DNA of 64,000 nucleotides. Source: a phage. Shown one piece after another: positions 37,715 to 58,249 of the stretch. The notes beneath the pieces were generated by a model. That model was not told the DNA's origin. It saw only the letters and a list, made by a program, of their open reading frames with translations, and did no database searches. Position 1 is the first letter of the stretch; each line of letters starts with the position of its first letter. Both the position numbers and the translations under genes were made by a program. The stretch lies in NCBI GenBank assembly GCA_028909515.1, contig GCA_028909515.1_4811.1. One strand, 5' to 3'.

Positions 37715-38362
37715 TTATCCTGTGGCCTGCATATTGCGTACATACTTCTGCTCTAATGAATAGATGAAGTCGGCGACAGTTAATCCCTTCGTGTGCCATT
37801 CATACATGGTGAAGCCTGTATTCAGGAAATAGCCGCGCACCTTGTCCATCGCTTCAGCTTCCTCCATTGAAGCCATCAGCGCGGCGACGTTGTCATAAGA
37901 AGGCACAAATCCCTTCTTGCGTAGCGCATTGCGCAAATCTTTAGTTCTGAATCCAATCTTGCAAGGGTCATCACGGCCCGTGGATGATGCAACCTTCGGT
38001 AGCGCAAGGAACTCTTTAAGGAACATTGCAATGTTCAAGTCTCCTGCGTCATCAAGCTTCTGGATTCGGTTGCGACCGCGACCCTTGAATTCACTTGCAC
38101 GAGGGTGAGCGCCAAAACAGTGCGCCCCTTCCAGTTTAGGGTCGATGATCATTACATCTTTACCAATGCGCAGCTCTACGTAGTAAAGATAAGACTCATC
38201 GACAAGCTTTGTGCGCTTGCAAGTGATTGAGTCCTTATCATAACCAAAGCCACGCAACACGGTTGAAATCATCCGGTTCATTTCTTCGCCGTGAACGTCA
38301 CTCTCTTTGTTCAGTTCACCAAGATTTTGAAAGAATTTAGCGATGTTGATTGCTTTATTCAT
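37715..38362 (-). CDS. hypothetical protein
   Basis: 215-aa ORF immediately downstream of the helicase-like gene. Confidence 0.5.
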   Translation of the reverse strand: MNKAINIAKFFQNLGELNKESDVHGEEMNRMISTVLRGFGYDKDSITCKRTKLVDESYLYYVELRIGKDVMIIDPKLEGAHCFGAHPRASEFKGRGRNRIQKLDDAGDLNIAMFLKEFLALPKVASSTGRDDPCKIGFRTKDLRNALRKKGFVPSYDNVAALMASMEEAEAMDKVRGYFLNTGFTMYEWHTKGLTVADFIYSLEQKYVRNMQATG

Positions 38363-40032
38363 CAGAATTCATCCTTATCTCTTCCCAAAGAACGTTTACG
38401 CTCAATAACCTTCTTCAAGAATTCAATATCTTCAGGGTCAGACTCATCGCGGATGAGATACGCTAAGATGGTCATCAAATCAGAAATGTATTCCCCTGAT
38501 TCATTCTTAATCAGCGGCGTAAAGTAACCGCGCTGGTTGCGATAGGTTGCAGGCTCAAAACCAAGCTTCGACATGTGCGGCGCAAGGGTACGAGAGAAAG
38601 GCGACTTGCCGCACTTCGCTCTGAATCCCATAGCAATAGCACCACTGGTGATGTGCCAGCGTCCGCTGTGATGTCGGTCATAAGGCGCGGTGATGACGAC
38701 TTCAACAAGGTCGTTGTCAACCATCTCATCACGGATAACGCCGCGCGCACGTTCCATTTCGTTCTTGCTGAACTCAGTAAGCATGCGAGATGTTTCACCA
38801 ACAAACGCATTGTAACCTGCTTCGCCGTGCTTCTCCATCCACGCAGCACACTCAGCCATCAACTGCCAAACGTCTTCTTTCAAAGTGGAAAGGTCAGCTT
38901 GGAAATCTTTCGACCAGTTCGGTTGCCCGTCCTTGTCAGCGAGTTGGCCAACAAAGATAGGATACACACGACGGTTGCCCGTGTCATCGCGCTGCATACC
39001 TGCGTATTCATTGCCGTCCATGATAGCAATCCACTGGCGTGGTTTAACCTGCGTATCTTCAAATTTGAAGTCCAGGTCATCTTCTGTCTTAGTCAGGAAT
39101 GCTTTCATGTTTTCGATGTCGGCCTTTTTAAAGCCTGTCATCTCGCCGACGTTCGCGATAATCGAGCGACCCGTAATAGCTCGCAAGAACGGGTTGAAGT
39201 TTTGCGCGGCTAAGTTTAACGGAATCGGTGTTGCGTGGCGGTCGTTCATAATAGCTTCGCAAAGCAGCTTGCTAAAATAACTCTTCCCTGCGTTCTGGCC
39301 GCCGATGAGCGCGATGGAGATTGGCGCTTGACAGCCAGGGTTGGTCAGGCGGTTATAGAGCGATAGCCAAAAATACACACCGATTTGTCGGTTTAACTCT
39401 GTATCGAATGGTCGGAATAGCTCGATAAGGTATTTCTCGATGCGCGCAGTACCGTCCCATTCAGGCAGCTTCTTGTAGAAGAAGTCCATCAGGTCGTCGC
39501 GCTGATAACGCATGGCCCATTCCTTATAGGATTGAGCGACCTGACGTGAGTTTGGGTTGGACAATCCTGCTGCGTCGACAGCGGCAACTATCTCTGTGAC
39601 TTCCAAAGTACGGTCGGTGAATGTTTCGCCGCGATGGTCGACTAAGCGCCCACGAAAAGTATCTTTGTGAGGGAATGGAACAACGCCACTTCCCTTATCA
39701 AACAACGCGTCGAAAACCGCATAACGGTTCATGTCACTCGTCCTGTCTGCCTGTAGAACGAAGTCATCTTTGGTAGGCTTGTAGTGAGGGAACTTGATTA
39801 CCTGAAGTGAGGCGAGCAAGCGTGCTCTTTCAACCAAGTCTTCTTCACCGTAGCATTCCATGCGCTCTGAATCTTTTTCAACGGCTTTATGTTGAAGGCT
39901 GATTTTAGCTCTGGTGCCTTGCTGCTCTGCCGCCTGCATTTCTTCCGAAACGCCTGCATCTTGAATTTCGTCAAAGATTGCACCAAATTCATCACCTGTA
40001 TCCTCTGGAAGATTGTCATTATTAATTGACAT
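38362..40032 (-). CDS. primase-associated SF3-type helicase (D5/VirE-like P-loop NTPase)
   Basis: 556 aa; Walker A 'GGQNAGKS' and downstream Walker B-like acidic patch. Confidence 0.65.
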   Translation of the reverse strand: MSINNDNLPEDTGDEFGAIFDEIQDAGVSEEMQAAEQQGTRAKISLQHKAVEKDSERMECYGEEDLVERARLLASLQVIKFPHYKPTKDDFVLQADRTSDMNRYAVFDALFDKGSGVVPFPHKDTFRGRLVDHRGETFTDRTLEVTEIVAAVDAAGLSNPNSRQVAQSYKEWAMRYQRDDLMDFFYKKLPEWDGTARIEKYLIELFRPFDTELNRQIGVYFWLSLYNRLTNPGCQAPISIALIGGQNAGKSYFSKLLCEAIMNDRHATPIPLNLAAQNFNPFLRAITGRSIIANVGEMTGFKKADIENMKAFLTKTEDDLDFKFEDTQVKPRQWIAIMDGNEYAGMQRDDTGNRRVYPIFVGQLADKDGQPNWSKDFQADLSTLKEDVWQLMAECAAWMEKHGEAGYNAFVGETSRMLTEFSKNEMERARGVIRDEMVDNDLVEVVITAPYDRHHSGRWHITSGAIAMGFRAKCGKSPFSRTLAPHMSKLGFEPATYRNQRGYFTPLIKNESGEYISDLMTILAYLIRDESDPEDIEFLKKVIERKRSLGRDKDEF

Positions 40033-41341: not shown

Positions 41342-42424
41342 CTATTTTATGCCACCTGCACGACGATTTATCATGTCAAGTTGATTCTCAATATAAGGCA
41401 TGACGATTGCTTCAACAAAAGCGGTCCAACCTTTCTTGCCTTCCCCTTTACGGTGACAGTCGTGGGCGCAACCGAACACAAATTCATGTTCTGCACCAGG
41501 GATAGGGCCGCGAAAGTAAGCGCCATACGGGTCGCCGTTGGTGTGTTCTTCACCCCAAGGACAGATTATGCGGCACTTGCCTGACATGTTCTCGATGACG
41601 TCACCATCAGACCCTTCACCCATCTTGCTGCGCGCTAGAATCTGCTGGGCTATTTTATACCAAACAGCATCATACTTGTATTCATCGACGTCAATTTGAA
41701 TCTCACGCTTTTGCGGCATGACGACGTGAAAGCCAAATGCCTGACAAATGTCTTCGATGGTGTAGCGCAATGAGTAGTCTGCATGGACAAGTCGGCAGCG
41801 GAACGGGTCGCCGTTCTCATCGACATATTTATAGGGGCCGTCATGAGTCACACGCTTGTTGTTGATGCACCCAGGAACACGGCCCACGCGCGTTACGTCT
41901 TTAATCGTGTTGTCGCCGCCCTTCTTGAGTACCATGTTAACGAAAGACCCAAGGAACGCTTTGAACTGAATAAGATGGTCAATCGGTTCTTTAAAGAAGT
42001 ACCAAAGCTGGTGGTTGTTCGGTGAAGTCTCGACGATGACAGTCGGCTTCAGTCGCTCAAAAAAGAATTCCAAATCTAAATCGCCTTTGGACCCTTTACC
42101 GTGACCGATGTCGTCGACCATCATCGCCATGCCGTGACCAAAGGCCGACTCTGTACGCCAGTATCGCATCTCACCCGTCTTTGGGTTGGGAGACTTACGC
42201 ATTGAACTGATGCAAGCATAGCCGTTTTGGTGCTGCATGAGCGGCTTTCCCAACTTCCAAGGCTTAGGCCAGAAGCTGCTGTTAATCTTCTTGCCGCGCT
42301 CGTCAGTCTGCACCGTTGCTTCAGGCGCAAACACCGTCATGACGCGCTCATCTTCTGGAATGCCTCTTTGGAGTTCTGTTAAAAACTCTTCGATTATTTT
42401 TGCTTCTTCTCTTAAACTAGCCAT
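41342..42424 (-). CDS. primase-polymerase-like replication protein (AEP-type, tentative)
   Basis: 360 aa; acidic 'VDDIGHG' and 'NNHQLWYFF' resemble AEP primase motifs I and II; C-terminal Cys/His cluster; first gene after a strong TTGACT-N16-TATACT promoter. Confidence 0.4.
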   Translation of the reverse strand: MASLREEAKIIEEFLTELQRGIPEDERVMTVFAPEATVQTDERGKKINSSFWPKPWKLGKPLMQHQNGYACISSMRKSPNPKTGEMRYWRTESAFGHGMAMMVDDIGHGKGSKGDLDLEFFFERLKPTVIVETSPNNHQLWYFFKEPIDHLIQFKAFLGSFVNMVLKKGGDNTIKDVTRVGRVPGCINNKRVTHDGPYKYVDENGDPFRCRLVHADYSLRYTIEDICQAFGFHVVMPQKREIQIDVDEYKYDAVWYKIAQQILARSKMGEGSDGDVIENMSGKCRIICPWGEEHTNGDPYGAYFRGPIPGAEHEFVFGCAHDCHRKGEGKKGWTAFVEAIVMPYIENQLDMINRRAGGIK

Positions 42425-44198: not shown

Positions 44199-44254
44199 TA
44201 AGTTATCCCAAACGGGGAATATAAAATAAACTAATTTATTTAAGGACTGTGAAT

Positions 44255-45094
44255 ATGGCCGAAGCAATCAAAGTATTATCTAAAGAAGAAAAACAAGCAG
44301 CCGCAGCAGAACGTCGTCGCGTGGCTGAAGAAAAACGCCTGGCTAAAAAGAAAGAAGCCGAAGAAAAACGCCAGAAGCGTGAGCAGGAAAAACAAGCCAA
44401 GCGTGAAGAAGCTGCGCTGAAACGCAAGCAGGCTGCTGATGAGAAGGCTCAGAAGCGTGCTGAAGAAGCAGCTAAGAAAGCTAAAGAGCGTGCAGAAAAG
44501 GCTGCTGCTAAGAAAGCAGAGCGTGAAGCCGCTAAAGCAGCAAAAGAAATCGAAAAGGCAAAGGCTAAAGAAGAAGCCAAGCGCCTGAAAGCTGAGCAGG
44601 CTGCGGCCAAGAAAGCAGAGCGTGATCAAGCCCGTGCTGCAGCGAAGGCCGAAAAAGAGAAGGCCAAAGAAGAAGCTAAAGCGAAACGCAAGGCAGAGCG
44701 TGAAGCTGCTAAGATTGCGGCGAAAGAAGCTGCAGAACAGCAGAAAGAACAGCGTAAGAAAGAAGCTGAAGAACGTCGCAAAGCCATCGCAGAACGTAAG
44801 GCTGCTAAAAAGGCAAACGGTCAGCGTCGTGCAAAAGCCACTCACTTCATCTACACTGGCAATGGCCTGAGCCAGCCGCAAGAGCATTCCACCCGTGGAC
44901 GCGTTCTGGCGGCGATCAAAGAAGGCGAAGTTGGCGTGGCGCAGTCTATCGATGAGCTGGGCGAAAAAGTTAAAGATCAACTGTTTGGCGCTTCCGTTCG
45001 CTCCTACCTGAGCAAGCTGGAAGAGATGGGCCACATCGAGTTTGTCGATGTTGAATCCAACGGCGATGCCGAAGACGGTGATCAAGCGGAATAA
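44255..45094 (+). CDS. Lys/Glu/Ala-rich charged helical protein (histone H1-like low complexity)
   Basis: About 190 aa of K/E/A/R repeats then a ~85-aa globular C-terminus; own promoter and terminator; host-optimal codons; ATG at 44255 preferred over GTG at 44249 for RBS spacing. Confidence 0.6.
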   Translation: MAEAIKVLSKEEKQAAAAERRRVAEEKRLAKKKEAEEKRQKREQEKQAKREEAALKRKQAADEKAQKRAEEAAKKAKERAEKAAAKKAEREAAKAAKEIEKAKAKEEAKRLKAEQAAAKKAERDQARAAAKAEKEKAKEEAKAKRKAEREAAKIAAKEAAEQQKEQRKKEAEERRKAIAERKAAKKANGQRRAKATHFIYTGNGLSQPQEHSTRGRVLAAIKEGEVGVAQSIDELGEKVKDQLFGASVRSYLSKLEEMGHIEFVDVESNGDAEDGDQAE

Positions 45095-45120: not shown

Positions 45121-45147
45121 GACCCACACTTGTTGTGGGTCTTTTTT
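45121..45147 (+). terminator. rho-independent terminator
   Basis: GACCCACA-cttgt-TGTGGGTC followed by TTTTTT. Confidence 0.65.
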
Positions 45148-45226: not shown

Positions 45227-46222
45227 ATGAACATGAAACAACCTGTAATGATTATCGGCGGCGGACTGGCAGGACTTATCACCGCGTGTCACTTCCCGAA
45301 CTCTATTGTGTACGAAGCAGGGGAACGAGCGCAACAGCACAAGGCACTGCTACGCTTTCGCGGCGAAGAAGTAAGCCGTATTACCGGAATCCCTTTTAAG
45401 GCCGTGACAGTTGACAAGGCTGTGTATTTTCGCGGTAACTACTACCACGACCATTGCCCAATCAACCTTGCCAATATGTATTCCATGAAGGTCACCAATC
45501 AGTTTGGCAGTCGTTCAATCATGAAGCTTAAAACTGCAACGCGTTATATTGCGCCTGATGACTTTTATGATCAGCTTGTCGACAAACTGGGTGACCGCAT
45601 ATTCTTTAATACTCCGGTTGATACTCTTTGCGGCTATAGCGAGACGCCAATCATCAACACGTCGCCGCTGCCAGTAATGATGAAGCTTGCTGGGATTGAT
45701 CAAAAGCTTGATTTCTCATTTGATAAAGCAAACATTCGCGTTTACCGCTTTAAGATTAAACGTAAGTGTGATTTGTATCAGACAATTTACTTCCCTGACT
45801 ACTCCGTCAGAACTTACCGCGCATCAATTACTGGTGACACGCTTATCATTGAAACAATTCCTTTGGTCAGCGTGAGTGAAGCTGCAGTTGAAGCCGCTGG
45901 CGGCATCACCCGTTATCGCGACATGAAGCTGCGCGCGGAAGTGGACGAAGTTCTGACCGCTTTTGGTCTTTCATGGAATGACATCTCTTTGGAAGAAGTT
46001 GAAAAGGTTGACCAGAAGTATGGCAAGATTGTAGACATTCCGAAAGACTTGCGACACGCCTTACTGCTCCAGCTGACTATGGATTTGAACGTATTCAGTG
46101 TTGGCCGATTCGCTACATGGCGCAACATCTTGCTTGATGACGTAGCTCATGACCTTGTTGAAGTTGAAAAACTCATCAAAGCAAATAACTATCAAAAATT
46201 TGCTTATATTGCTAATAAATAA
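45227..46222 (+). CDS. FAD/NAD(P)-binding oxidoreductase
   Basis: N-terminal Rossmann dinucleotide-binding motif 'VMIIGGGLAGLITA' with downstream acidic residue ('VYEAGE'). Confidence 0.6.
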   Translation: MNMKQPVMIIGGGLAGLITACHFPNSIVYEAGERAQQHKALLRFRGEEVSRITGIPFKAVTVDKAVYFRGNYYHDHCPINLANMYSMKVTNQFGSRSIMKLKTATRYIAPDDFYDQLVDKLGDRIFFNTPVDTLCGYSETPIINTSPLPVMMKLAGIDQKLDFSFDKANIRVYRFKIKRKCDLYQTIYFPDYSVRTYRASITGDTLIIETIPLVSVSEAAVEAAGGITRYRDMKLRAEVDEVLTAFGLSWNDISLEEVEKVDQKYGKIVDIPKDLRHALLLQLTMDLNVFSVGRFATWRNILLDDVAHDLVEVEKLIKANNYQKFAYIANK

Positions 46223-46287
46223 TTTGCTTTCTTCTTCAATGTGCGTATACTTTAATCATTGAAGCAGAACTCATAGAGGAAACGAAA

Positions 46288-46734
46288 ATGAAACGAATCA
46301 CTGGAATCGCGCTTGCCGCGACTGCTATTCTCGGCACCATGTATATGGAAGCGACTGAAGCCGCCGTCCGTACTTCCGATTCAATCGCTGTTTACGATTG
46401 TGAAGCGATGGACGGTAAGACCGCAGCAACGACTGGTGCGAAGATTACCACTTACATCGGTGTGAATGAGCAAGAAGGTCTGAATATTCAGATTCAGGGA
46501 TTCACGGGAAAAGGCGCCAACCGGACTCCGTGGATGCAGCGTTTCACTTTCGTTCAACCTCGTTCAACTGGCGCCTTTATCAACCTGATTGGTGAAAACC
46601 GTTCTGGTGCAGAAATCTTTACATCAATGAGTTCCAATAATGAACCAAAGAAAAGTTTTCAGTTGCTTTATAACGCACAATTCGTTTATCATTGCACCTT
46701 CTCTGGTGATCAGCAACTAGTTAACTACCGTTAA
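46288..46734 (+). CDS. hypothetical protein with N-terminal hydrophobic/signal-like segment
   Basis: 148 aa; 'ITGIALAATAILGTMYM' at N-terminus. Confidence 0.45.
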   Translation: MKRITGIALAATAILGTMYMEATEAAVRTSDSIAVYDCEAMDGKTAATTGAKITTYIGVNEQEGLNIQIQGFTGKGANRTPWMQRFTFVQPRSTGAFINLIGENRSGAEIFTSMSSNNEPKKSFQLLYNAQFVYHCTFSGDQQLVNYR

Positions 46735-46747
46735 TAGGATAATTAAA

Positions 46748-47551
46748 ATGAAAGTTGAATTAATTCGATACACCCAAGATGCACTTGACCTTTTGCTGGA
46801 AACAAAGAACACGCGCATGACTGGTAAGCCAGTCTCTGAGATGACAGAATCAGAGAAGCAAGAGCACTGGCGATACATGCTTGACACAATCAAGTCGCCT
46901 TTTGATTTTGTGGACTATATCTTTGACATCACTGATGTATCAAAGAATATGACTCATCAGATGGTGCGCACGCGCACAGGTGCATATCAAGAACGTACAA
47001 GCCGCGCTCAGGAATCTTCTGCTTTTGATGCGATTCGTCCTGCCAAATTTACTTACCCAGAGGATGATCCAAAGGGATGGACTCGTCATGACGAGAAGGC
47101 TGCTGAACTGGCAGAGAAATGGGATGATGCGATGGCCACGATTGACGCCCTCTACCAAGAGCTTCGCGCGGCTGGCGCAGAGATTCAAGATGCACGTGCC
47201 GTGTTGCCTTCTAATATGCAAACGCATATCATGGCAAAGTTCAACTTGCGAACGCTGCAACAGATGGCGTCAAACCGCTTGTGCACGCGCACCCAAGGCG
47301 AGTATCAGGAAGTTTTCCGTGCGATGGTAGCTGAAGTCCTCAAGGTGCATCCGTGGGCTAATCCTTTACTACAGCCGCAATGCATCGGCATGGGCAAGTG
47401 CGCATTCCCTCGCCATGGCAAGGCCCATTGCCCTTGGTATCGTGATTGGATGGATACCACTGCACAGCAAGAAGAATTACGCATCCAGTTTTGGAATGCA
47501 ATGCCAATCACCAATAATCCGGTTGCCAAAGATGGAGTATCAAAAGGATGA
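46748..47551 (+). CDS. ThyX-fold protein (flavin-dependent thymidylate synthase family), divergent signature
   Basis: Collinear with recalled ThyX sequences: 'FDITDVSKNMTHQMVRTRTGAYQERTSRA' versus canonical '...HE.VRHR.AS.SQ.S.RY', and 'FNLRTLQQMASNRLCTRTQGEY' versus 'NLR...HF..LR....AQ.EIR'; RHR is replaced by RTR and the Tyr after S-x-R by Ala. Confidence 0.65.
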   Translation: MKVELIRYTQDALDLLLETKNTRMTGKPVSEMTESEKQEHWRYMLDTIKSPFDFVDYIFDITDVSKNMTHQMVRTRTGAYQERTSRAQESSAFDAIRPAKFTYPEDDPKGWTRHDEKAAELAEKWDDAMATIDALYQELRAAGAEIQDARAVLPSNMQTHIMAKFNLRTLQQMASNRLCTRTQGEYQEVFRAMVAEVLKVHPWANPLLQPQCIGMGKCAFPRHGKAHCPWYRDWMDTTAQQEELRIQFWNAMPITNNPVAKDGVSKG

Positions 47552-48420
47552 GCATTAAAAACAGCGAAATCTTAAACGTATTCGACCTTGACGGAACGCT
47601 GTTTGATGACCGTTGGCGCTTAGACCGCATCAAGGTGGCAGGTCCGTTGTCAGACTATGATGACTATCACAGCGGTATTGGTTATGATCAGTTCTATCCT
47701 CACATTGCATCAGCAGTAGAGTCGGCATCTCTTCGCGGTGAGGCGGTTGAATATTGGACTGCAAGGCCAGAAAAATACAGACAAGTGACTTTTGAACGTC
47801 TGGACAATGTTTTCCCTTTTGATGAATTTACAATCAAGATGAGAGACTATGGCGACAAACGTCCATCAACTATCATGAAATCTGCATGGCTATCGCACGC
47901 ATTGCGGCACGGTGATTATCGAATCATCAATGTATTCGACGACCGACAAGACGTACTCGCGCGGATGCAAGATGAAGCATTGTATTATAATTCCGTTGCT
48001 CAAAATAAAATCGCTTTTACATTTAATCTTTGCAAGGCAGGTGAAGTGGTGCAACAATTAGCAATTGATCCAAGCGCAACAGGGCAAGAAGAGACTAAGG
48101 CTGTGGAAGTTGAACAATCTCCGGCAACTGCCGCCGATATTCTTGATGCAATGGCAGCAACCTTCCGTGAGCGCAACGCTGTCTATGGCGATAACGCTGT
48201 GATGGTAGGTCAGGTTATGCAGGTGCTTTTCCCTAATGGCGTAACGTTGAAAACGCCGGAAGACTACCACATGTGGCATCTGTTCGAGCTTAAGATTGTC
48301 AAGCTTACACGCTTTGCAATCAGCGGCCTGAAGCACGAAGACTCTATACACGATGATGGTGTTTACAGCGCCATGTGTGAACGTCTTGTAAACACCCATA
48401 ATATTAATTTCAATAAATAG
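47548..48420 (+). CDS. HAD-family phosphatase fused to an alpha-helical C-terminal domain
   Basis: HAD motif I 'VFDLDGTLFDD'; 4-nt overlap with the ThyX-like gene. Confidence 0.55.
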   Translation: MSIKNSEILNVFDLDGTLFDDRWRLDRIKVAGPLSDYDDYHSGIGYDQFYPHIASAVESASLRGEAVEYWTARPEKYRQVTFERLDNVFPFDEFTIKMRDYGDKRPSTIMKSAWLSHALRHGDYRIINVFDDRQDVLARMQDEALYYNSVAQNKIAFTFNLCKAGEVVQQLAIDPSATGQEETKAVEVEQSPATAADILDAMAATFRERNAVYGDNAVMVGQVMQVLFPNGVTLKTPEDYHMWHLFELKIVKLTRFAISGLKHEDSIHDDGVYSAMCERLVNTHNINFNK

Positions 48421-48449
48421 TTTACTTGTGCGTTTCGATGAGTTATATT
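48421..48449 (+). promoter_or_regulatory. sigma70-like promoter with conserved downstream box
   Basis: TTTACT-N17-TATATT followed by TACCTCATCGAAACGAA. Confidence 0.5.
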
Positions 48450-48485
48450 TACCTCATCGAAACGAAGTCCAAAAAGGATAAATAA

Positions 48486-49169
48486 ATGAAAAAAGTAATT
48501 GTTGTAACAGGTTCCAATTCCGGTCTTGGTAAATCTATTTTTGACACCCTTGGCGCTTACGGTCATAACGTGCTTGGCATCGATTCAGCATACGGATATG
48601 ACGTCCGCGATGCTAAACAGATGAAAGAAATTTTAAGCCCATATGATGTTGAAGGCTTGATCAACTGTGCTGGTGTCAACTCTAACAACTGGTTCGAAGA
48701 TGTTAACTACGAAGAGTTCAATCGCGTTATGCACACCAACGCCTTCTCTTTCGTCAACACGACTCAGGCCGCGCTGAAAAGTCTTATCGACAACAAAGGC
48801 TTTGTGATCAACATCGTTTCCAACGCTGCGCATATTCCTATGACGTCCAGCTTGTGTTATAATGCATCCAAGGCTGCTGCGCTTATGATCAGCAAGCAGA
48901 TGGCTCACGAACTTACGCCTAAGTACGGCATCACGGTATTCTCTATTAGTCCTAACAAGTTGCGCGGCACTGGCATGTCTAAACAGATTGAAGATGCCGT
49001 TTGTGCGACTCGCGGCTGGACTCCTGAATACGCTGCTGAATACCAGAAAAAGGCATTGATGAATGGATTGGAGACTGAGCCGCAAGTAATTGCCGACTTC
49101 ATTCGCCATATCTTAATTACGGGCGCATGGCGCTTTATGTCTGGCACTGATATTCCATTTGGTAAATAA
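48486..49169 (+). CDS. short-chain dehydrogenase/reductase (SDR)
   Basis: 'VIVVTGSNSGLGKSI' cofactor motif and 'YNASK' catalytic Y-x-x-x-K; promoter upstream. Confidence 0.65.
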   Translation: MKKVIVVTGSNSGLGKSIFDTLGAYGHNVLGIDSAYGYDVRDAKQMKEILSPYDVEGLINCAGVNSNNWFEDVNYEEFNRVMHTNAFSFVNTTQAALKSLIDNKGFVINIVSNAAHIPMTSSLCYNASKAAALMISKQMAHELTPKYGITVFSISPNKLRGTGMSKQIEDAVCATRGWTPEYAAEYQKKALMNGLETEPQVIADFIRHILITGAWRFMSGTDIPFGK

Positions 49170-49265
49170 ATCACGAACATTTTAAGTTGTCACACCCGCT
49201 CCTGAAAAGAAACAGGACGAAGACAACACAGTAATTAATCAATAATATTTAATTAAGGAAACAAA

Positions 49266-49817
49266 ATGCCACATTTTAAAATTGAACAAATCGCCCTGTC
49301 AATTCCAGATGCTCAGCGCGCACAGGATTTCTTGGCTAAAATCGGCCTGACGGAATGGTTCCATGATCATGTTGTTGCTACTGGTCGCGTATTTGAAGCT
49401 GATGACTTTAAAGGTCGTCGCGACGATTGCACCAATGAAGCTGACTTGCGCTTCAACTATCAGGCTGGCAACGGTACTGATGGCGGCGCTGGTAAGCCTC
49501 TTGAGCTTGAAATACTTGACTACACAATGGGCTGCAACTGGATTAACGAAAACATCGAATATATCGATGCGCATGACAATCAGGTCAGCCACCTTGGCAT
49601 GCATGTGACTGCCGCTGAACTTGCTGAATGGCGTAAGTTCTTTAGCGAAGAAGGCATTCAGGTTGCACAGGAAGTTGTAACTGACTCTCATACCAACCCG
49701 AACATTGCTGGTCAACGTCGTTACAACTATGTGATCTTTGATACGCGTGAAATCATCGGTGTTGATTTGAAGTTTATCGTGCGCTTGAATCAAGACGGTA
49801 CTCCGTACACTGTATAA
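49266..49817 (+). CDS. VOC/glyoxalase-fold protein (tentative)
   Basis: 'PHFKIEQIALSIPDAQRAQDFLAKIGL' and 'SHLGMHVTAAELAEWRKFFSEEGIQV' resemble paired glyoxalase-type modules. Confidence 0.4.
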   Translation: MPHFKIEQIALSIPDAQRAQDFLAKIGLTEWFHDHVVATGRVFEADDFKGRRDDCTNEADLRFNYQAGNGTDGGAGKPLELEILDYTMGCNWINENIEYIDAHDNQVSHLGMHVTAAELAEWRKFFSEEGIQVAQEVVTDSHTNPNIAGQRRYNYVIFDTREIIGVDLKFIVRLNQDGTPYTV

Positions 49818-49871
49818 CGAATCGTGAATCTGTGGCCGTCCTAATGGGCGGCCTTTTTGTAGGAGGCTAAT

Positions 49872-56191: not shown

Positions 56192-57052
56192 ATGTCTAAG
56201 AAAGAAACCACCGAAGTTGCAGTGAAAAACACCCAGATGTCCGCTATGGCTGATTTTGTCGACATGACCGATTTTGGCGCTGGTTTTGAAGGTGCCGATG
56301 CCGATGCGTATGCCATTCCTTTTATCGTCGTACTGCAGAAGATGTCTCCTATGGTCGACGAAGATGATCCGAAACACGTTCCTGGCGCAAAAGCTGGCAT
56401 GCTTTACAACACCGTTACTGGTGAGTTGTATGACGGCAAGAAAGGCGTGCAGATCATCCCTTGCGCATTCAAACGCACCTTCATTCTTTGGGGCGGTCGC
56501 GAGTCCGACGATAAAGGCTTTAAAGGTGAATTCACCAAAGAGCACGTTGATGCAGAAGTCGCGGCAGGCCGCGCTGTTGAGATCAACGGTAAGGTATTCG
56601 TGCCGGACGAAAACGGCAAGGTGCACGAGAAGAAATCTCCTTACTACGCAGATACACGCAACCACTTCGTAATTCTGTTGAACGAAGAAACTGGTGAATT
56701 TGGTAGCGCAATGCTGTCTCTGACTTCTTCCATGATCAAGCCGTCTCGCATGCTGATGACCGCCCTGCAGCAGAAGAAAGTTCAGACTCCGCAGGGTCTG
56801 AAAACGCCGCCGACCTTTATGAACATTGTTCGCATGGGTACTGCATCCCAGTCCAAAGACGGCAATACATGGTCTGTTCTGAAGTTTGAGCTGGAAGGTC
56901 TGGTGCAGGACAAAGGTCTGTACGAAGTCGCCAAGGCATTCCACAACGACGTAGTTGGCGGTAACGTTAACATCGACCGCAGCAAGCAGGAAGAAGCAAG
57001 CGGTGCCGCTGGTCCTGTCAATGAAACTCCGACCGACGCAGAAGAGTTTTAA
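56192..57052 (+). CDS. single-stranded DNA-binding protein-like (gp2.5-type acidic tail)
   Basis: 286 aa; acidic C-terminus ending '...ETPTDAEEF'; host-optimal codons; own terminator. Confidence 0.5.
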   Translation: MSKKETTEVAVKNTQMSAMADFVDMTDFGAGFEGADADAYAIPFIVVLQKMSPMVDEDDPKHVPGAKAGMLYNTVTGELYDGKKGVQIIPCAFKRTFILWGGRESDDKGFKGEFTKEHVDAEVAAGRAVEINGKVFVPDENGKVHEKKSPYYADTRNHFVILLNEETGEFGSAMLSLTSSMIKPSRMLMTALQQKKVQTPQGLKTPPTFMNIVRMGTASQSKDGNTWSVLKFELEGLVQDKGLYEVAKAFHNDVVGGNVNIDRSKQEEASGAAGPVNETPTDAEEF

Positions 57053-57109: not shown

Positions 57110-57625
57110 ATGATAGAAAGAATTGTACCGCTCCTGAAGATTCTGGCCCTTGTTGGCGCGTTTGCCGCTGGATCATACGTTGAAGACCTGCAGCAAACCA
57201 ACGCATCACTGGCCAAGGATAATCAATATCTGACATCGCTTAATGAGCGTAAGGACAAGATAAATGCACTCGAAGAGCAAATTGCAACTTTACAGGTTGA
57301 ATCGGCATCGGCATATGAGAAGGGTCGCCAGGAAGCGCAACTGGTTGCTGATGACACTATTGCTCGTTACAAGTCTGGGAATGTCAAGTTGCGCGAGCAA
57401 CTCAGCTGCTCCCGTGAGTTACTCAGGAGTGTGCCCGACTCTGCGACCACTGGACGCCTCTCTATCCCAGAAGGAAACTGTGGACTATCAGAAGAGGATG
57501 TCAGATTTCTTGTTCAGTTCGCCGCAGAAACAAATCGATTAAAAGAGAAAGTTAATAGCTTGATTGATACTTATAATCAGGCTAAAATAAAAATCGATCA
57601 ATTCAATGCATCAAAGGAAAAATAA
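57110..57625 (+). CDS. i-spanin-like (Rz-type) protein
   Basis: N-terminal TM 'IVPLLKILALVGAFAAGSYV' then long coiled-coil region; contains an embedded +1-frame lipoprotein-like ORF. Confidence 0.45.
   Translation: MIERIVPLLKILALVGAFAAGSYVEDLQQTNASLAKDNQYLTSLNERKDKINALEEQIATLQVESASAYEKGRQEAQLVADDTIARYKSGNVKLREQLSCSRELLRSVPDSATTGRLSIPEGNCGLSEEDVRFLVQFAAETNRLKEKVNSLIDTYNQAKIKIDQFNASKEK
57315..57542 (+). CDS. embedded o-spanin-like lipoprotein (Rz1-type, tentative)
   Basis: +1 frame inside 57110..57625: basic n-region 'MRRVARKR', hydrophobic core, lipobox-like 'LGMSSC', Pro-rich mature part with a second Cys. Confidence 0.35.
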   Translation: MRRVARKRNWLLMTLLLVTSLGMSSCASNSAAPVSYSGVCPTLRPLDASLSQKETVDYQKRMSDFLFSSPQKQID

Positions 57626-58249
57626 ATGAAACAGATTTATGCAAACATTCGCCAGTGGGCTTCTGACCGTAACATCATCCAAGGTTGCGACCTTAAGGAC
57701 CAATACCCGAAGCTTATCAGCGAGTTTGGGGAGTTAACCGACCACGTTGATCAACTCCATGACCTTGTGTTCTTCGACCCTGAAATTGGATATACAGAGC
57801 AGGCCATCTGTGACTTGCAAGCTGCAATCAAGGACGACATTGGCGATTGTCTTGTTGTGTTGACCATCCTGGCGGCGCAAAACGGTACTGAAATCGAAAA
57901 CATTAATGGCGGCGGTTGTGCTGATAAAGGCGCTCACCCTCATTCATTCATCCTTCGCCTGGCAAAGACCCTTGGACGGCTTGGTGATGCTATTGCTAAG
58001 AATCAGACCATGGATATTGACGTCACCATCATGGCCGCAGTCGATTACCTTTCCGGCGTAGCTCATGATTATGGCCTTCGCTTATCCGACTGTGCGCAAG
58101 CGGCCTACGAAGACATCAAGGACCGCAAAGGTGTCATGTACAACGGAACGTTCATCAAATCTACTGATCCAGCTTATGAGCACTCCTGCAAAATGGTAAA
58201 GAAGCTGGAACTTGAAGACCGTGTGATCAGAGAAGTTACAGGACAATAA
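57626..58249 (+). CDS. MazG-like nucleoside triphosphate pyrophosphohydrolase
   Basis: 'LISEFGELTDHV' and 'DDIGDCLVVLTILA' fit the MazG E-x-x-E / D-x-x-G-D metal-binding pattern. Confidence 0.55.
   Translation: MKQIYANIRQWASDRNIIQGCDLKDQYPKLISEFGELTDHVDQLHDLVFFDPEIGYTEQAICDLQAAIKDDIGDCLVVLTILAAQNGTEIENINGGGCADKGAHPHSFILRLAKTLGRLGDAIAKNQTMDIDVTIMAAVDYLSGVAHDYGLRLSDCAQAAYEDIKDRKGVMYNGTFIKSTDPAYEHSCKMVKKLELEDRVIREVTGQ

What the first reader, a model, noticed from the sequence alone, without database searches (positions are those of the whole stretch)
45227..49817. Enzyme cluster around a divergent ThyX-fold gene: candidate nucleotide or DNA-base modification pathway
Six co-directional, tightly spaced genes sit between the Dda-like helicase and the DnaQ/DnaE replicase genes: a Rossmann FAD/NAD(P) oxidoreductase, a protein with a signal-like N-terminus, a ThyX-fold protein, a HAD phosphatase fusion (4-nt overlap with ThyX), an SDR reductase and a VOC/glyoxalase-fold protein. 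The ThyX-like protein keeps the fold-level motifs but changes the signature: RTR replaces RHR and Ala replaces the Tyr after S-x-R. A MazG-like NTP pyrophosphohydrolase lies at 57626..58249. Established knowledge: phages that hypermodify thymidine or cytidine pair a thymidylate-synthase-family enzyme with phosphatases or pyrophosphatases that deplete the canonical nucleotide and with tailoring enzymes. Inference: this cluster may make a non-canonical pyrimidine, with oxidoreductases as tailoring or flavin-recycling steps. I have not seen this gene combination described.
Basis: partly seen in the sequence, partly recalled or inferred. Interest (0 to 1): 0.8.

Follow-up and report, generated by a model that had tools for sequence, protein, structure and literature searches.

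The report
Conserved flavoenzyme cluster beside phage replicase
A five-enzyme gene set built around an unusual ThyX-like flavoprotein is conserved next to the DNA polymerase genes of PB1-like phages, and it is the best candidate so far for making the sugar-decorated thymidine recently found in their DNA, though no experiment yet links the genes to that base.

Summary
The window is a Wifcevirus (E. coli myophage, 94-96% identical to SP13, WFH and Bas98-101). All six + strand ORFs are at the stated coordinates, bracketed by two terminator-like hairpins.

Five of the six form a module that goes well beyond this genus. In 46 IMG/VR viral contigs with at least 6 kb downstream of a gene-1 homologue, I found ThyX-like 46/46, the C-terminal domain 45, HAD 42, SDR 34 and VOC 35. 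The order is always the same and ends at DnaQ. Pseudomonas Pbunavirus keeps three of them. A Rhizobium jumbo phage and actinophages carry related sets. The signal-peptide ORF is Wifcevirus-only.

The ThyX-like protein belongs to a distinct clade: R-T/S/N-R and never RHR, Ala/Val in place of the strictly conserved Tyr91, no His53, and a score below the TIGR02170 cut-off.

Published work shows that Pbunavirus F8 and 14-1 carry hypermodified thymidine (nucleosides of 362 and 390 u) with no known modification genes. Wifceviruses resist five of six restriction-modification systems without a known protection mechanism.

The pathway reading is therefore plausible and new, but unproven. An ordinary dTMP-supply role is not excluded, and a mononucleotide enzyme does not explain the reported TG specificity.

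The parts
45121..45147 (+). Terminator-like hairpin (8-bp stem, T6 tail) just upstream of gene 1; upstream boundary of the unit
45227..46222 (+). Gene 1: 331-aa FAD-type flavoprotein (PHROG 4828, 'unknown function'). Its fold is closest to UDP-galactopyranose mutase, then protoporphyrinogen and amine oxidases.
46288..46734 (+). Gene 2: 148-aa ORF with a Sec-type signal-like N-terminus (MKR, hydrophobic stretch, TEA/A). Wifcevirus-specific insert, probably not part of the conserved module.
   Evidence: No family hit. tblastn finds it in only 29 Wifcevirus/Shigella phage records. Present in 4 of 46 contigs. The signal peptide was judged by eye only.
46748..47551 (+). Non-canonical ThyX-family flavoprotein. 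It keeps the dUMP/uracil-binding arginines and loses His53, His79, Gly89 and Tyr91. It has a four-Cys C-terminal extension (C179, C212, C218, C228).
   Evidence: Pfam Thy1 1.1e-30. TIGR02170 scores 83.1, below the 87.9 cut-off. Alignments. Clade survey.
47548..48060 (+). HAD phosphatase domain of the fusion protein (D13-x-D15-G-T, T71-A-R-P, K111, D131-D132). No kinase domain, so the 'polynucleotide kinase' annotation is wrong.
   Evidence: Pfam HAD_PNKP 5.4e-8, above cut-off. Motifs conserved in alignment A3.
48109..48420 (+). C-terminal four-helix domain of the fusion, related to Pfam DUF6378. It is the most conserved piece of the module, with invariant Y, P, G, K, R, H, D.
48486..49169 (+). 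Classical short-chain dehydrogenase/reductase; substrate not assignable
   Evidence: Pfam adh_short 2.6e-31. All NCBIfam hits are far below their cut-offs. Generic FabG-like PDB matches. The homologue was detected by MS in an ECML-117 lysate (PMC7048862).
49266..49817 (+). Probable VOC (glyoxalase/dioxygenase-superfamily) protein, always paired with the SDR
   Evidence: Glyoxalase_4 at 0.004, below cut-off. 15 of 25 family members match, best 9.3e-6. No PDB sequence match. Adjacent to the SDR in 34-35 of 46 contigs. Homologue detected by MS in vB_Eco4M-7.
49834..49858 (+). Terminator-like hairpin (8-bp stem, 7 G-C pairs, T5 tail) between the VOC gene and DnaQ; downstream boundary of the unit
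57626..58249 (+). It is real, but no link to the cluster was shown.
   Evidence: PHROG 1992 at 3e-62; Pfam MazG 0.023, below cut-off. It lies 7.8 kb away, beyond the spanin genes.

Best explanation
The region is one transcription unit. It carries a conserved five-enzyme module plus one genus-specific secreted ORFan. The five enzymes are a UGM/PPO-like FAD protein, a non-canonical ThyX-family flavoprotein, a HAD phosphatase fused to a DUF6378-like four-helix domain, an SDR, and a VOC protein.

I think the module most likely is, or contributes the nucleotide- and sugar-level steps of, the still unassigned pathway that puts a sugar or sugar-alcohol substituent on C5 of thymidine in PB1-like phages. 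In Wifcevirus this would help explain resistance to restriction.

Shown here:
- the genes and their folds;
- their conservation and fixed order;
- the altered ThyX active site.

Shown by others, in relatives:
- hypermodified T in Pbunavirus virion DNA;
- restriction resistance of Wifcevirus.

Inferred:
- that these genes cause either phenotype;
- that the ThyX-like enzyme does C5 chemistry on a uracil or thymine nucleotide with a carbon donor other than folate;
- that the flavoprotein, SDR, VOC and HAD enzymes prepare or trim a sugar-derived group.
For: 1. Conservation. Gene 1, ThyX-like and HAD-DUF6378 lie in the same order between the Dda helicase and DnaQ/DnaE in PB1. All three also lie within 6 kb in Rhizobium jumbo phage RHph_Y65. 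In 46 IMG/VR contigs with enough flank I found ThyX 46, C-domain 45, HAD 42, SDR 34 and VOC 35, always collinear, at 30-60% identity.

2. Related sets next to DnaE in actinophages. Sparcetus has a Rossmann oxidoreductase, HAD, SDR (35% identity), VOC (33%) and a DUF6378-like protein. Cybele has an oxidoreductase, ThyX and a small helical protein. Benzema has an oxidoreductase, a 5'-nucleotidase, SDR, DnaE and ThyX.

3. The ThyX clade is non-canonical. Of 65 distinct proteins next to gene 1, 62 match the motif. Their middle RxR residue is T (49), S (12) or N (1), never His. Position 91 is A, V or once T, never Tyr. There is no His at position 53. The score is below the TIGR02170 cut-off. The literature calls Tyr91 and Ser88 strictly conserved, reports that Y91A slows carbinolamine consumption more than 100-fold, and shows His53 stacking the folate pterin and H-bonding Tyr91 (PMC8316439, PMC11940539).

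4. Phenotype in relatives. F8 and 14-1 have thymidine derivatives of 362 and 390 u replacing about a quarter of T. Pbunavirus is named there as an example of phages that gene-homology searches would miss (PMC12191111). Native nanopore sequencing fails on Pbunavirus and PCR libraries rescue it.

5. Phenotype in the genus. Bas98-101 are insensitive to EcoKI, EcoCFT_I, EcoRI, EcoRV and EcoCFT_II despite 15 EcoRI and 7 EcoRV sites.

6. No other enzyme-like genes outside replication, lysis and structure were recognised in the genome.

7. There is precedent for phage flavin-using TS-family enzymes and a phage UGM in DNA hypermodification (PMC13326640).
Against: - No experiment links any of these genes to a modified base, and no nucleoside data exist for a Wifcevirus.
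- The Pbunavirus modification was inferred to be TG-specific. That implies a post-replicative, DNA-level enzyme, whereas every characterised ThyX acts on mononucleotides.
- F8 and 14-1 make different nucleosides but have the same genes here (flavoprotein 97%, ThyX 94%, fusion 79% identical, with the fusion's differences mostly in the linker).
- Pbunavirus lacks the SDR and VOC genes yet is modified.
- No glycosyltransferase, 5-hmU DNA kinase, aGPT-Pplase or TET/JBP dioxygenase was recognised.
- A TG-only modification would explain resistance to EcoKI, EcoCFT_I and CACAG and sensitivity to AGACC, but not resistance to EcoRI and EcoRV.
- Synteny inside phage replication modules can persist without functional coupling.
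- More than half of the genome's genes are of unknown function and could hide the real pathway.
Confidence: 0.45

Rival explanations
1. This is an ordinary nucleotide-supply module. The ThyX-like protein is a working, if divergent, thymidylate synthase that feeds the phage DnaE replicase. The HAD domain is a 5'(3')-deoxynucleotidase or a DNA 3'-phosphatase. The flavoprotein reduces flavin for ThyX. The SDR and VOC are loosely associated metabolic genes. The thymidine modification of relatives is made elsewhere.
For: - Strong Thy1 match, with all uracil- and phosphate-binding arginines (R74, R76, R86, R150, R177), N166, R168, Q183 and E185 retained.
- Position next to DnaQ/DnaE, and next to dUTPase and RNR in the Rhizobium phage.
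- HAD hits to the PNKP phosphatase and NT5C families.
- No thyA in the annotated genome.
- The best structural matches of gene 1 include NAD(P)H-reducible eukaryotic UGMs.
- ThyX can work without folate, using formaldehyde (PMC8316439).
Against: - Tyr91 and His53, called strictly conserved or conserved and functionally important, are absent from the whole clade.
- The score is below the equivalog cut-off.
- This reading gives no role to the tightly co-inherited SDR, VOC and DUF6378-like proteins.
- Sparcetus keeps the oxidoreductase, HAD, SDR, VOC and DUF6378-like set with no ThyX detected in the 12-kb region read.
Confidence: 0.27
2. The module makes or destroys a small molecule that is not a DNA base. 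Examples are a flavin, folate or sugar metabolite, a detoxification step for reactive aldehydes formed during fast replication, or a countermeasure to a nucleotide-based host defence signal. It rides with the replication genes for timing of expression.
For: - SDR plus VOC is a common pairing in small-molecule catabolism, and the SDR's best NCBIfam hits are sugar, polyol and dihydrodiol dehydrogenases, all below cut-off.
- DUF6378 has no known function.
- The HAD family often acts on small phosphorylated metabolites.
- Within one actinophage genus the ThyX cassette and the HAD+SDR+VOC cassette occupy the same slot.
Against: - A ThyX-family protein with intact uracil-nucleotide binding residues sits at the centre of the module in 46 of 46 contigs.
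- The HAD domains match nucleotide- or DNA-phosphatase subfamilies.
- There is no direct support for any particular metabolite.
Confidence: 0.15
3. The six genes are unrelated accessory genes that happen to lie together, so the apparent cluster has no joint function.
For: Gene 2 is a genus-specific insert. Pseudomonas Pbunavirus has five other small ORFs interspersed and lacks SDR and VOC.
Against: - The order g1, ThyX, HAD-DUF6378, SDR, VOC is kept across contigs with only 30-45% protein identity, many of them without the upstream Dda homologue.
- Parts recur together in a jumbo Rhizobium phage and in actinophages.
- Terminator-like hairpins bracket the unit.
Confidence: 0.05

Closest known systems
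Flavin-dependent thymidylate synthase ThyX (Pfam Thy1, TIGR02170; T. maritima TM0449, PDB 1o26/4gt9)
   Same: Same fold and family (Thy1 1.1e-30). Q75, R78, R80, E86, R90, R147, N163, R165, R174, Q180 and E182 equivalents are retained, so it very probably binds a uracil nucleotide next to a flavin.
   Different: RHR becomes RTR. Ser88 becomes Thr, Gly89 becomes Ser, Tyr91 becomes Ala. His53 and His59 are lost. It scores below the TIGR02170 equivalog cut-off. It has an extra four-Cys C-terminal extension. These changes are fixed in the whole phage clade that accompanies gene 1.
Thymidine hypermodification pathways of phages M6, ViI, SP10, PhiW-14 and PaMx11 (Lee et al. 2018, 2021)
   Same: A thymidylate-synthase-superfamily enzyme sits at the centre, flanked by tailoring enzymes including a flavoprotein, close to the replication genes. 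The expected outcome is a C5-substituted thymidine that blocks nucleases.
   Different: Those pathways use a ThyA-family dUMP hydroxymethylase, a P-loop 5-hmdU DNA kinase and aGPT-Pplase transferases. None of these is recognisable here. This module is ThyX-based and adds a UGM/PPO-like flavoprotein, HAD-DUF6378, an SDR and a VOC protein.
Orphan thymidine hypermodification of Pbunavirus F8 and 14-1 (Yee et al. 2025 preprint)
   Same: Pbunavirus is the sister group of this phage and shares gene 1, the ThyX-like gene and the HAD-DUF6378 gene in the same position. The chemistry reported there (a sugar alcohol or pentose on thymidine) fits sugar-handling folds.
   Different: No genes were assigned in that work. 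Pbunavirus lacks the SDR and VOC genes. No nucleoside analysis exists for Wifcevirus. The Wifcevirus restriction pattern is not explained by a TG-only mark.
UDP-galactopyranose mutase, including the phage UGM RL38J1_084 used for DNA glycosylation
5-hydroxy-dCMP synthases of RB69 and DLP3 (ThyA homologues that switched from folate to flavin; Lee et al. 2026)
   Same: They are a precedent for a thymidylate-synthase-superfamily enzyme in phages that dropped folate chemistry to make a new C5-substituted pyrimidine nucleotide, which is then glycosylated.
   Different: Different fold (ThyA, not ThyX), different base (C), and dedicated glycosyltransferases are present.
T4 polynucleotide kinase/phosphatase (PseT)
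   Same: The N-terminal HAD domain matches the PNKP phosphatase domain family.
   Different: There is no P-loop kinase domain. A DUF6378-like four-helix domain takes its place. The database name 'polynucleotide kinase/phosphorylase' is therefore misleading.

Membership tests
ThyX (flavin-dependent thymidylate synthase) | Match to the Thy1 domain model over its full length | tested here: met
   Pfam PF02511 1.1e-30, 107 bits, profile positions 2-191 of 191
ThyX (flavin-dependent thymidylate synthase) | ThyX signature motif RHR-x7-S-x-R-Y (His79, Ser88, Arg90, Tyr91 in T. maritima) | tested here: not met
   The sequence is R74-T75-R76...T84-S85-R86-A87. In the 62 motif-matched clade members the middle residue is T, S or N and position 91 is never Tyr.
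ThyX (flavin-dependent thymidylate synthase) | Conserved His53 that stacks the folate pterin and H-bonds Tyr91 | tested here: not met
   The aligned residue is Ile48 or a gap. The clade consensus is TI[KPR]SPFEF, without His. Role of His53 from PMC11940539.
ThyX (flavin-dependent thymidylate synthase) | Nucleotide-binding and polarising arginines (R78, R80, R90, R147, R174) | tested here: met
   R74, R76, R86, R150 and R177 are invariant in alignments A2 and A5
ThyX (flavin-dependent thymidylate synthase) | Score above the curated equivalog threshold (TIGR02170) | tested here: not met
   83.1 bits against a cut-off of 87.9
ThyX (flavin-dependent thymidylate synthase) | dUMP to dTMP activity with CH2-THF, NADPH and FAD; thyA complementation | not testable with these tools
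   Needs a biochemical or genetic assay
Known phage thymidine-hypermodification pathway (5-hmdU route) | ThyA-family dUMP hydroxymethylase | tested here: not met
   No ThyA-family hit in the cluster or in the ORFs scanned. None is annotated in Bas101.
Known phage thymidine-hypermodification pathway (5-hmdU route) | 5-hmdU DNA kinase (P-loop) and aGPT-Pplase transferase, or a TET/JBP dioxygenase | tested here: not met
   None was recognised by Pfam or PHROG in the cluster, in ten further ORFs or in PB1 neighbours. Many small ORFs were left unscanned.
Known phage thymidine-hypermodification pathway (5-hmdU route) | Non-canonical thymidine derivative in virion DNA | not testable with these tools
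   Shown for relatives F8 and 14-1 only (PMC12191111). No data for Wifcevirus.
UDP-galactopyranose mutase | FAD-binding Rossmann fold with an N-terminal GxGxxG | tested here: met
   G11-G-G-L-A-G16. Structural model and fold searches.
UDP-galactopyranose mutase | Closest overall fold is UGM, by a clear margin | tested here: inconclusive
UDP-galactopyranose mutase | Sequence membership (Pfam GLF) and the UDP-sugar binding residues | tested here: not met
   No Pfam or NCBIfam hit even at E of 10 or less. A profile search against PDB matches only the dinucleotide-binding motif. Individual binding residues were not mapped.
HAD phosphatase (PNKP-phosphatase-like) | HAD motifs I-IV and a family model score above cut-off | tested here: met
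   D13-L-D15-G-T, T71, K111, D131-D132. HAD_PNKP scores 33.5, above 27.6.
Polynucleotide kinase (database annotation) | P-loop kinase domain | tested here: not met
   The C-terminal half is a DUF6378-like four-helix bundle with no kinase match
Short-chain dehydrogenase/reductase | TGxxxGxG cofactor motif, the S/YxxxK catalytic residues, and a Pfam score above cut-off | tested here: met
   T8...G15, S112, Y125, K129. adh_short scores 109 bits, above 26.6.
VOC (glyoxalase/bleomycin-resistance/dioxygenase) superfamily | Match to a VOC domain model above the curated threshold | tested here: inconclusive
   17.8 bits, below 27, for this protein. 15 of 25 homologues match Glyoxalase_4, best 9.3e-6. 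No PDB sequence hit.
MazG-type NTP pyrophosphohydrolase (57626-58249) | MazG domain model above threshold | tested here: inconclusive
   Pfam MazG 15.4 bits, below 22. PHROG 1992 'MazG-like pyrophosphatase' at 3e-62.

The most novel reading that the evidence does not exclude
The ThyX-like enzyme may carry out ThyX-type flavin-N5 chemistry with an aldose, or an aldose phosphate, in place of the one-carbon unit. The UGM-like flavoprotein, the SDR, the VOC and the HAD phosphatase would then supply, reduce, isomerise and dephosphorylate the sugar.

The product would be a C-C-linked 5-(deoxyalditolyl or glycosyl)-deoxyuridine whose 'thymine methyl' carbon is really C1 of a sugar.

Three points make this worth stating:
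- ThyX can use a free aldehyde through a flavin carbinolamine (PMC8316439).
- The clade has lost the folate-stacking His53 and swapped the bulky Tyr91 for Ala or Val.
- The arithmetic fits. dU plus pentose with reductive alkylation gives C14H22N2O9, 362 u, the F8 nucleoside. dU plus hexose minus water gives C15H22N2O10, 390 u, the 14-1 nucleoside. These formulae are the same as the published 'thymidine plus tetrose alcohol' and 'thymidine plus cyclised pentose' readings.

This is my inference only. It does not explain the TG specificity.
Probability: 0.1. Interest if true: 0.95.

Novelty: new variant of a known kind. Interest (0 to 1): 0.74.

Why it matters
PB1-like phages (Pbunavirus) are among the phages most used for Pseudomonas phage therapy. 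Wifceviruses are candidate biocontrol agents for E. coli O157.

In 2025 Pbunavirus DNA was found to carry a sugar-type thymidine hypermodification. The modification defeats restriction enzymes, triggers END nucleases and breaks native nanopore sequencing. No biosynthetic genes were assigned. This cluster gives a short, testable candidate list that is shared by Pbunavirus, Wifcevirus and hundreds of uncultured relatives.

If the assignment is right, it would be the first DNA-hypermodification route built on a ThyX-family enzyme. It would give functions to PHROG 4828, to a widespread DUF6378-like domain (1613 sequence clusters) and to the 'FabG-like' and 'glyoxalase' genes of many phages. It would also provide a genomic marker for predicting modified genomes.

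If the assignment is wrong, the conserved loss of Tyr91 and His53 in a large ThyX clade still needs a biochemical explanation.

Tried and rejected
- My recollection that this domain is MazG-like: hhalign against the window's own MazG-like protein and against Cybele gp54 was not significant. Only the link to DUF6378 stands.
- Sequence and profile searches of gene 1 against PDB: only the GxGxxG motif aligns.
- hhalign of the gene-1 profile against the Sparcetus oxidoreductase: again only that motif. blastp gives a weak 67-residue match between Cybele gp52 and PB1 gp68, E 8e-5. Homology of the actinophage oxidoreductases to gene 1 is therefore unproven.
- VOC protein against PDB, as a single sequence and as a family profile: nothing.
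- SDR substrate assignment from NCBIfam and PDB: generic only.
- Search for other modification enzymes: no Pfam or PHROG hit in ten further Wifcevirus ORFs or ten PB1 neighbours.
- Test of whether a TG-only mark explains the BASEL restriction data. I rebuilt the Bas101 genome and reproduced the published site counts. CACAG fits the EcoCFT_II count of 87, one of only two 5-mers that do. TG occurs in the EcoKI, EcoCFT_I and CACAG sites and not in AGACC, which fits. It is absent from EcoRI and EcoRV sites, to which the phages are nevertheless resistant. I reject the TG-only model for Wifcevirus.
- Test of whether F8 and 14-1 differ in gene content here. They do not.
- My early reading that SDR and VOC are Wifcevirus extras, based on PB1, was overturned.
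- Literature searches for a gene assignment, or for digestion data on Wifcevirus, Xanthomonas or Serratia relatives, found none.
- I did not run the costly genome contigs or metagenome-contig scans.

Full report
**What the window is.** Megablast of 45227-49817 finds 29 phage records covering at least 80% of the region, nearly all at 90-96% identity. All are Escherichia or Shigella myophages of the genus Wifcevirus: SP13, F13, WFH, WFC, ECML-117, vB_Eco4M-7 and BASEL Bas98-101. In Bas101 the region is annotated as hypothetical, hypothetical, thymidylate synthase, polynucleotide kinase/phosphorylase, FabG-like reductase and hypothetical. It lies between a Dda-like helicase and the DnaQ-like exonuclease plus DnaE-type polymerase.

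**Checking the observation.**
- ThyX-like: Pfam Thy1, 1.1e-30.
- HAD fusion: HAD_PNKP on residues 11-142, above the curated cut-off.
- SDR: adh_short, 2.6e-31. It has TGxxxGxG at residues 8-15 and Y125-x3-K129.
- VOC: only a sub-threshold Glyoxalase_4 match (0.004). When I aligned 25 homologues from viral contigs, 15 matched that model, best 9.3e-6. VOC membership is therefore probable, not proven.
- Gene 1: no Pfam or NCBIfam match but a full-length match to PHROG 4828, 'unknown function'.
- MazG-like gene at 57626-58249: real by PHROG (3e-62) but weak in Pfam.

A K/E/A-rich 281-aa gene (44249-45094) lies between the helicase and gene 1. The C-terminal half of the 'HAD fusion' is a separate domain and is not a kinase.

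Two strong terminator-like hairpins on the + strand, at 45121-45141 and 49834-49853, bracket exactly these six genes. Nothing comparable lies inside. This fits a single transcription unit. The scan is consensus-based only.

**Gene 1.** An AlphaFold2 model built on 38 homologues has mean pLDDT 86.
- Bacterial UGMs reach only 14-15.
- Foldseek agrees, with TM 0.65 to UGM.

Gene 1 is therefore a small FAD protein of the UGM/PPO/amine-oxidase class. It cannot be filed as a UGM.

**The ThyX-like protein.** I aligned it with T. maritima ThyX.
- Kept: Q75, R78, R80, E86, R90, R147, N163, R165, R174, Q180 and E182.
- Changed: His79 to Thr, Ser88 to Thr, Gly89 to Ser, Tyr91 to Ala.
- Lost: His53 and His59.

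It scores 83.1 bits on the TIGR02170 equivalog model, whose cut-off is 87.9.

These changes are not a quirk of one phage. Of 65 distinct ThyX-like proteins that sit beside a gene-1 homologue in viral contigs, 62 match the motif.
- The middle residue of R-x-R is T (49), S (12) or N (1), never His.
- Position 91 is Ala, Val or once Thr, never Tyr.
- The segment before SPFEF never contains His.

The ThyX-like proteins of Microbacterium and Mycobacterium phages show the same pattern.

The ThyX literature calls Tyr91 and Ser88 strictly conserved and critical. [quoted passage not shown] His53 stacks on the folate pterin and hydrogen-bonds Tyr91 (PMC11940539).

The clade has thus lost a linked pair of residues that handle the carbon donor, while keeping the residues that hold and polarise the uracil nucleotide. 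That is the strongest sequence-level argument that it is not an ordinary thymidylate synthase. It is an argument, not a measurement.

Wifcevirus, PB1 and mycobacteriophage Benzema also share a Cys-rich C-terminal extension (C179, C212, C218 and C228 here).

**The HAD fusion.** The N-terminal domain has all four HAD motifs (D13-x-D15, T71, K111, D131-D132). The C-terminal 103 residues are the most conserved part of the protein, at 50-100% identity where the HAD domain is about 30-40%. They fold with pLDDT 93 into a four-helix bundle.

**Is it a module?** This is the main new result.
- In Pseudomonas phage PB1, gene 1 (gp68), ThyX-like (gp61) and HAD-DUF6378 (gp59) lie in the same order between the Dda helicase and DnaQ/DnaE. 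Small ORFs are interspersed and there is no SDR or VOC.
- In the 207-kb Rhizobium phage RHph_Y65, a different family, homologues of gene 1, ThyX-like and a protein carrying the same C-terminal domain lie within 6 kb, next to dUTPase and ribonucleotide reductase.
- A profile scan of IMG/VR gave 80 loci. Of the 46 with at least 6 kb downstream of gene 1, I found ThyX-like in 46, the C-domain in 45, HAD in 42, DnaQ in 45, SDR in 34, VOC in 35 and gene 2 in 4. The order was always the same, at 30-60% identity, and about half lacked the upstream Dda homologue.

The five-enzyme form seen in this window is therefore the common one. Pbunavirus is a reduced form. Gene 2 is a Wifcevirus-only insert.

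Actinophages carry related sets beside DnaE:
- Sparcetus: Rossmann oxidoreductase, HAD, SDR (35%), VOC (33%) and a DUF6378-like protein.
- Cybele, in the same genus: oxidoreductase, ThyX and a small helical protein in the same slot.
- Mycobacteriophage Benzema: oxidoreductase, 5'-nucleotidase, methyltransferase, SDR, DnaE and ThyX.

Homology of the actinophage oxidoreductases to gene 1 is not established.

**What relatives do.**
- A 2025 preprint reports that Pbunavirus F8 and 14-1 virion DNA resists enzymes whose sites contain TG. [quoted passage not shown] The authors cite Pbunavirus as an example of phages that would be missed by searching for known modification genes (PMC12191111).
- A 2026 preprint finds that native nanopore sequencing fails on Pbunavirus and that PCR libraries rescue it.

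I rebuilt the Bas101 genome and reproduced the published site counts. There are 15 EcoRI, 7 EcoRV, 7 EcoKI, 2 EcoCFT_I and 90 AGACC sites, and CACAG fits the EcoCFT_II count of 87. A TG-specific mark would explain resistance to EcoKI, EcoCFT_I and CACAG and sensitivity to AGACC. It would not explain resistance to EcoRI and EcoRV. If Wifcevirus DNA is modified, the context or chemistry differs from that inferred for F8.

No paper in the held library assigns genes to the Pbunavirus modification.

**Most likely mechanism, and its limits.** No other enzyme-like genes are recognisable outside replication, lysis and structure. By elimination and by fold, this module is the best candidate for the orphan thymidine hypermodification. 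I put that at about 0.45.

Weaknesses:
- TG specificity needs a DNA-level enzyme, and known ThyX enzymes act on mononucleotides.
- F8 and 14-1 differ in product but not in gene content here. The fusion protein is the most divergent (79%), mostly in its linker.
- Pbunavirus is modified without the SDR and VOC genes.
- No glycosyltransferase or 5-hmU-generating enzyme is evident.
- More than half the genome is of unknown function.

The main rival (0.27) is a divergent but ordinary dTMP-supply and nucleotide-salvage module. A non-DNA small-molecule role (0.15) and coincidence (0.05) follow.

**The most novel reading not excluded.** ThyX can use a free aldehyde through a flavin N5 carbinolamine (PMC8316439), and UGM forms a flavin N5-sugar iminium. 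A ThyX-like enzyme without the folate-stacking His and with Ala or Val in place of Tyr91 could alkylate C5 of a uracil nucleotide with an aldose.

The arithmetic fits. dU plus pentose with reductive alkylation gives C14H22N2O9 (362 u). dU plus hexose minus water gives C15H22N2O10 (390 u). These are the same formulae as the published readings. This is inference only. I give it about 0.1.

**Comparison and novelty.** The genes are present, and loosely annotated, in several hundred deposited genomes, so they are not new sequences. What is new:
- recognition of a conserved five-enzyme module;
- definition of a ThyX clade that lacks Tyr91, His53 and the RHR histidine;
- the link to an orphan DNA hypermodification.

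Known thymidine hypermodification routes use ThyA-family hydroxymethylases, 5-hmdU kinases and aGPT-Pplases (PMC8989533). None is found here. Phage ThyA homologues that switched to flavin, and a genuine phage UGM, are precedents for this kind of repurposing (PMC13326640).

I rate the finding a new variant of a known kind, with interest 0.74. The function is unproven, but the candidate list is short, the phages are cultivable and therapeutically relevant, and the deciding experiments are straightforward.

Noticed in passing
window 44249-45094 (+): A K/E/A-rich 281-aa protein lies between the Dda-like helicase and gene 1. Its C-terminal part is conserved in PB1 gp69 (54% over 85 aa) and in 23 of 46 related contigs. 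It is annotated 'TolA protein' in vB_Eco4M-7 and was detected there by mass spectrometry. A 269-aa ORF on the opposite strand (44276-45085) is probably an artefact of the low-complexity sequence.
   Followed up: partly
window 47282-47434 (ThyX-like residues C179, C212, C218, C228): The ThyX-like protein has four cysteines in and after its C-terminal core. The pattern is shared with PB1 gp61 and mycobacteriophage Benzema gp67, and is absent from the Rhizobium and Cybele homologues and from T. maritima ThyX. About half of the 65 clade members have it. It could be a metal or Fe-S site.
   Followed up: partly
L006 3779-7094 (Microbacterium phage Sparcetus) and L008 5060-7853 (Cybele): Two phages of one genus (Krampusvirus) carry different cassettes in the same slot, downstream of a homologous Rossmann oxidoreductase and upstream of DnaE. 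Sparcetus has HAD phosphatase + SDR + VOC followed by a DUF6378-like protein. Cybele has a 439-aa ThyX-like protein followed by an unrelated small protein.
   Followed up: partly
window 48109-48417 and proteins P0241-P0352: The DUF6378-like four-helix domain is very widespread (1613 clusters at 50% identity) and unusually well conserved (55-70% identity between cluster representatives). It has invariant Y, P, G, K, R, H and D residues and no known function.
   Followed up: partly
Bas101 genome rebuilt from L001, L004 and L005; whole window: Counting 5-mers shows CACAG (87 sites) as one of only two candidates for the EcoCFT_II recognition site. The window itself holds 19 EcoRI, 4 EcoRV, 87 AGACC and 5 EcoKI sites. 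Wifcevirus resistance to EcoRI and EcoRV is therefore not due to site avoidance.
   Followed up: yes
L089 7114-8130 (phage 14-1) and L090 7114-8175 (F8): The HAD-DUF6378 gene is the most divergent enzyme gene between Pbunavirus F8 and 14-1, at 79% against 94-99% for its neighbours. The differences concentrate in an acidic, repeat-like linker that also differs by 16 residues in length.
   Followed up: partly
window 56192-57052 (+): This 286-aa protein gives a strong Pfam match to Pam3_Gp34-like (4.2e-86), a family not named in the public annotation of this genus.
   Followed up: no
window 41342-42424 (-): The 360-aa protein annotated 'DNA primase' matches the RepB_primase N-terminal domain (4.6e-36). 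A second, 556-aa primase-annotated gene lies at 38362-40032, so the phage has two primase-like genes.
   Followed up: no
window 57110-57625 with embedded 57264-57542 (+): A nested ORF pair typical of an i-spanin with an embedded o-spanin lies between the replication genes and the MazG-like gene. This separates the MazG-like gene from the enzyme cluster.
   Followed up: no
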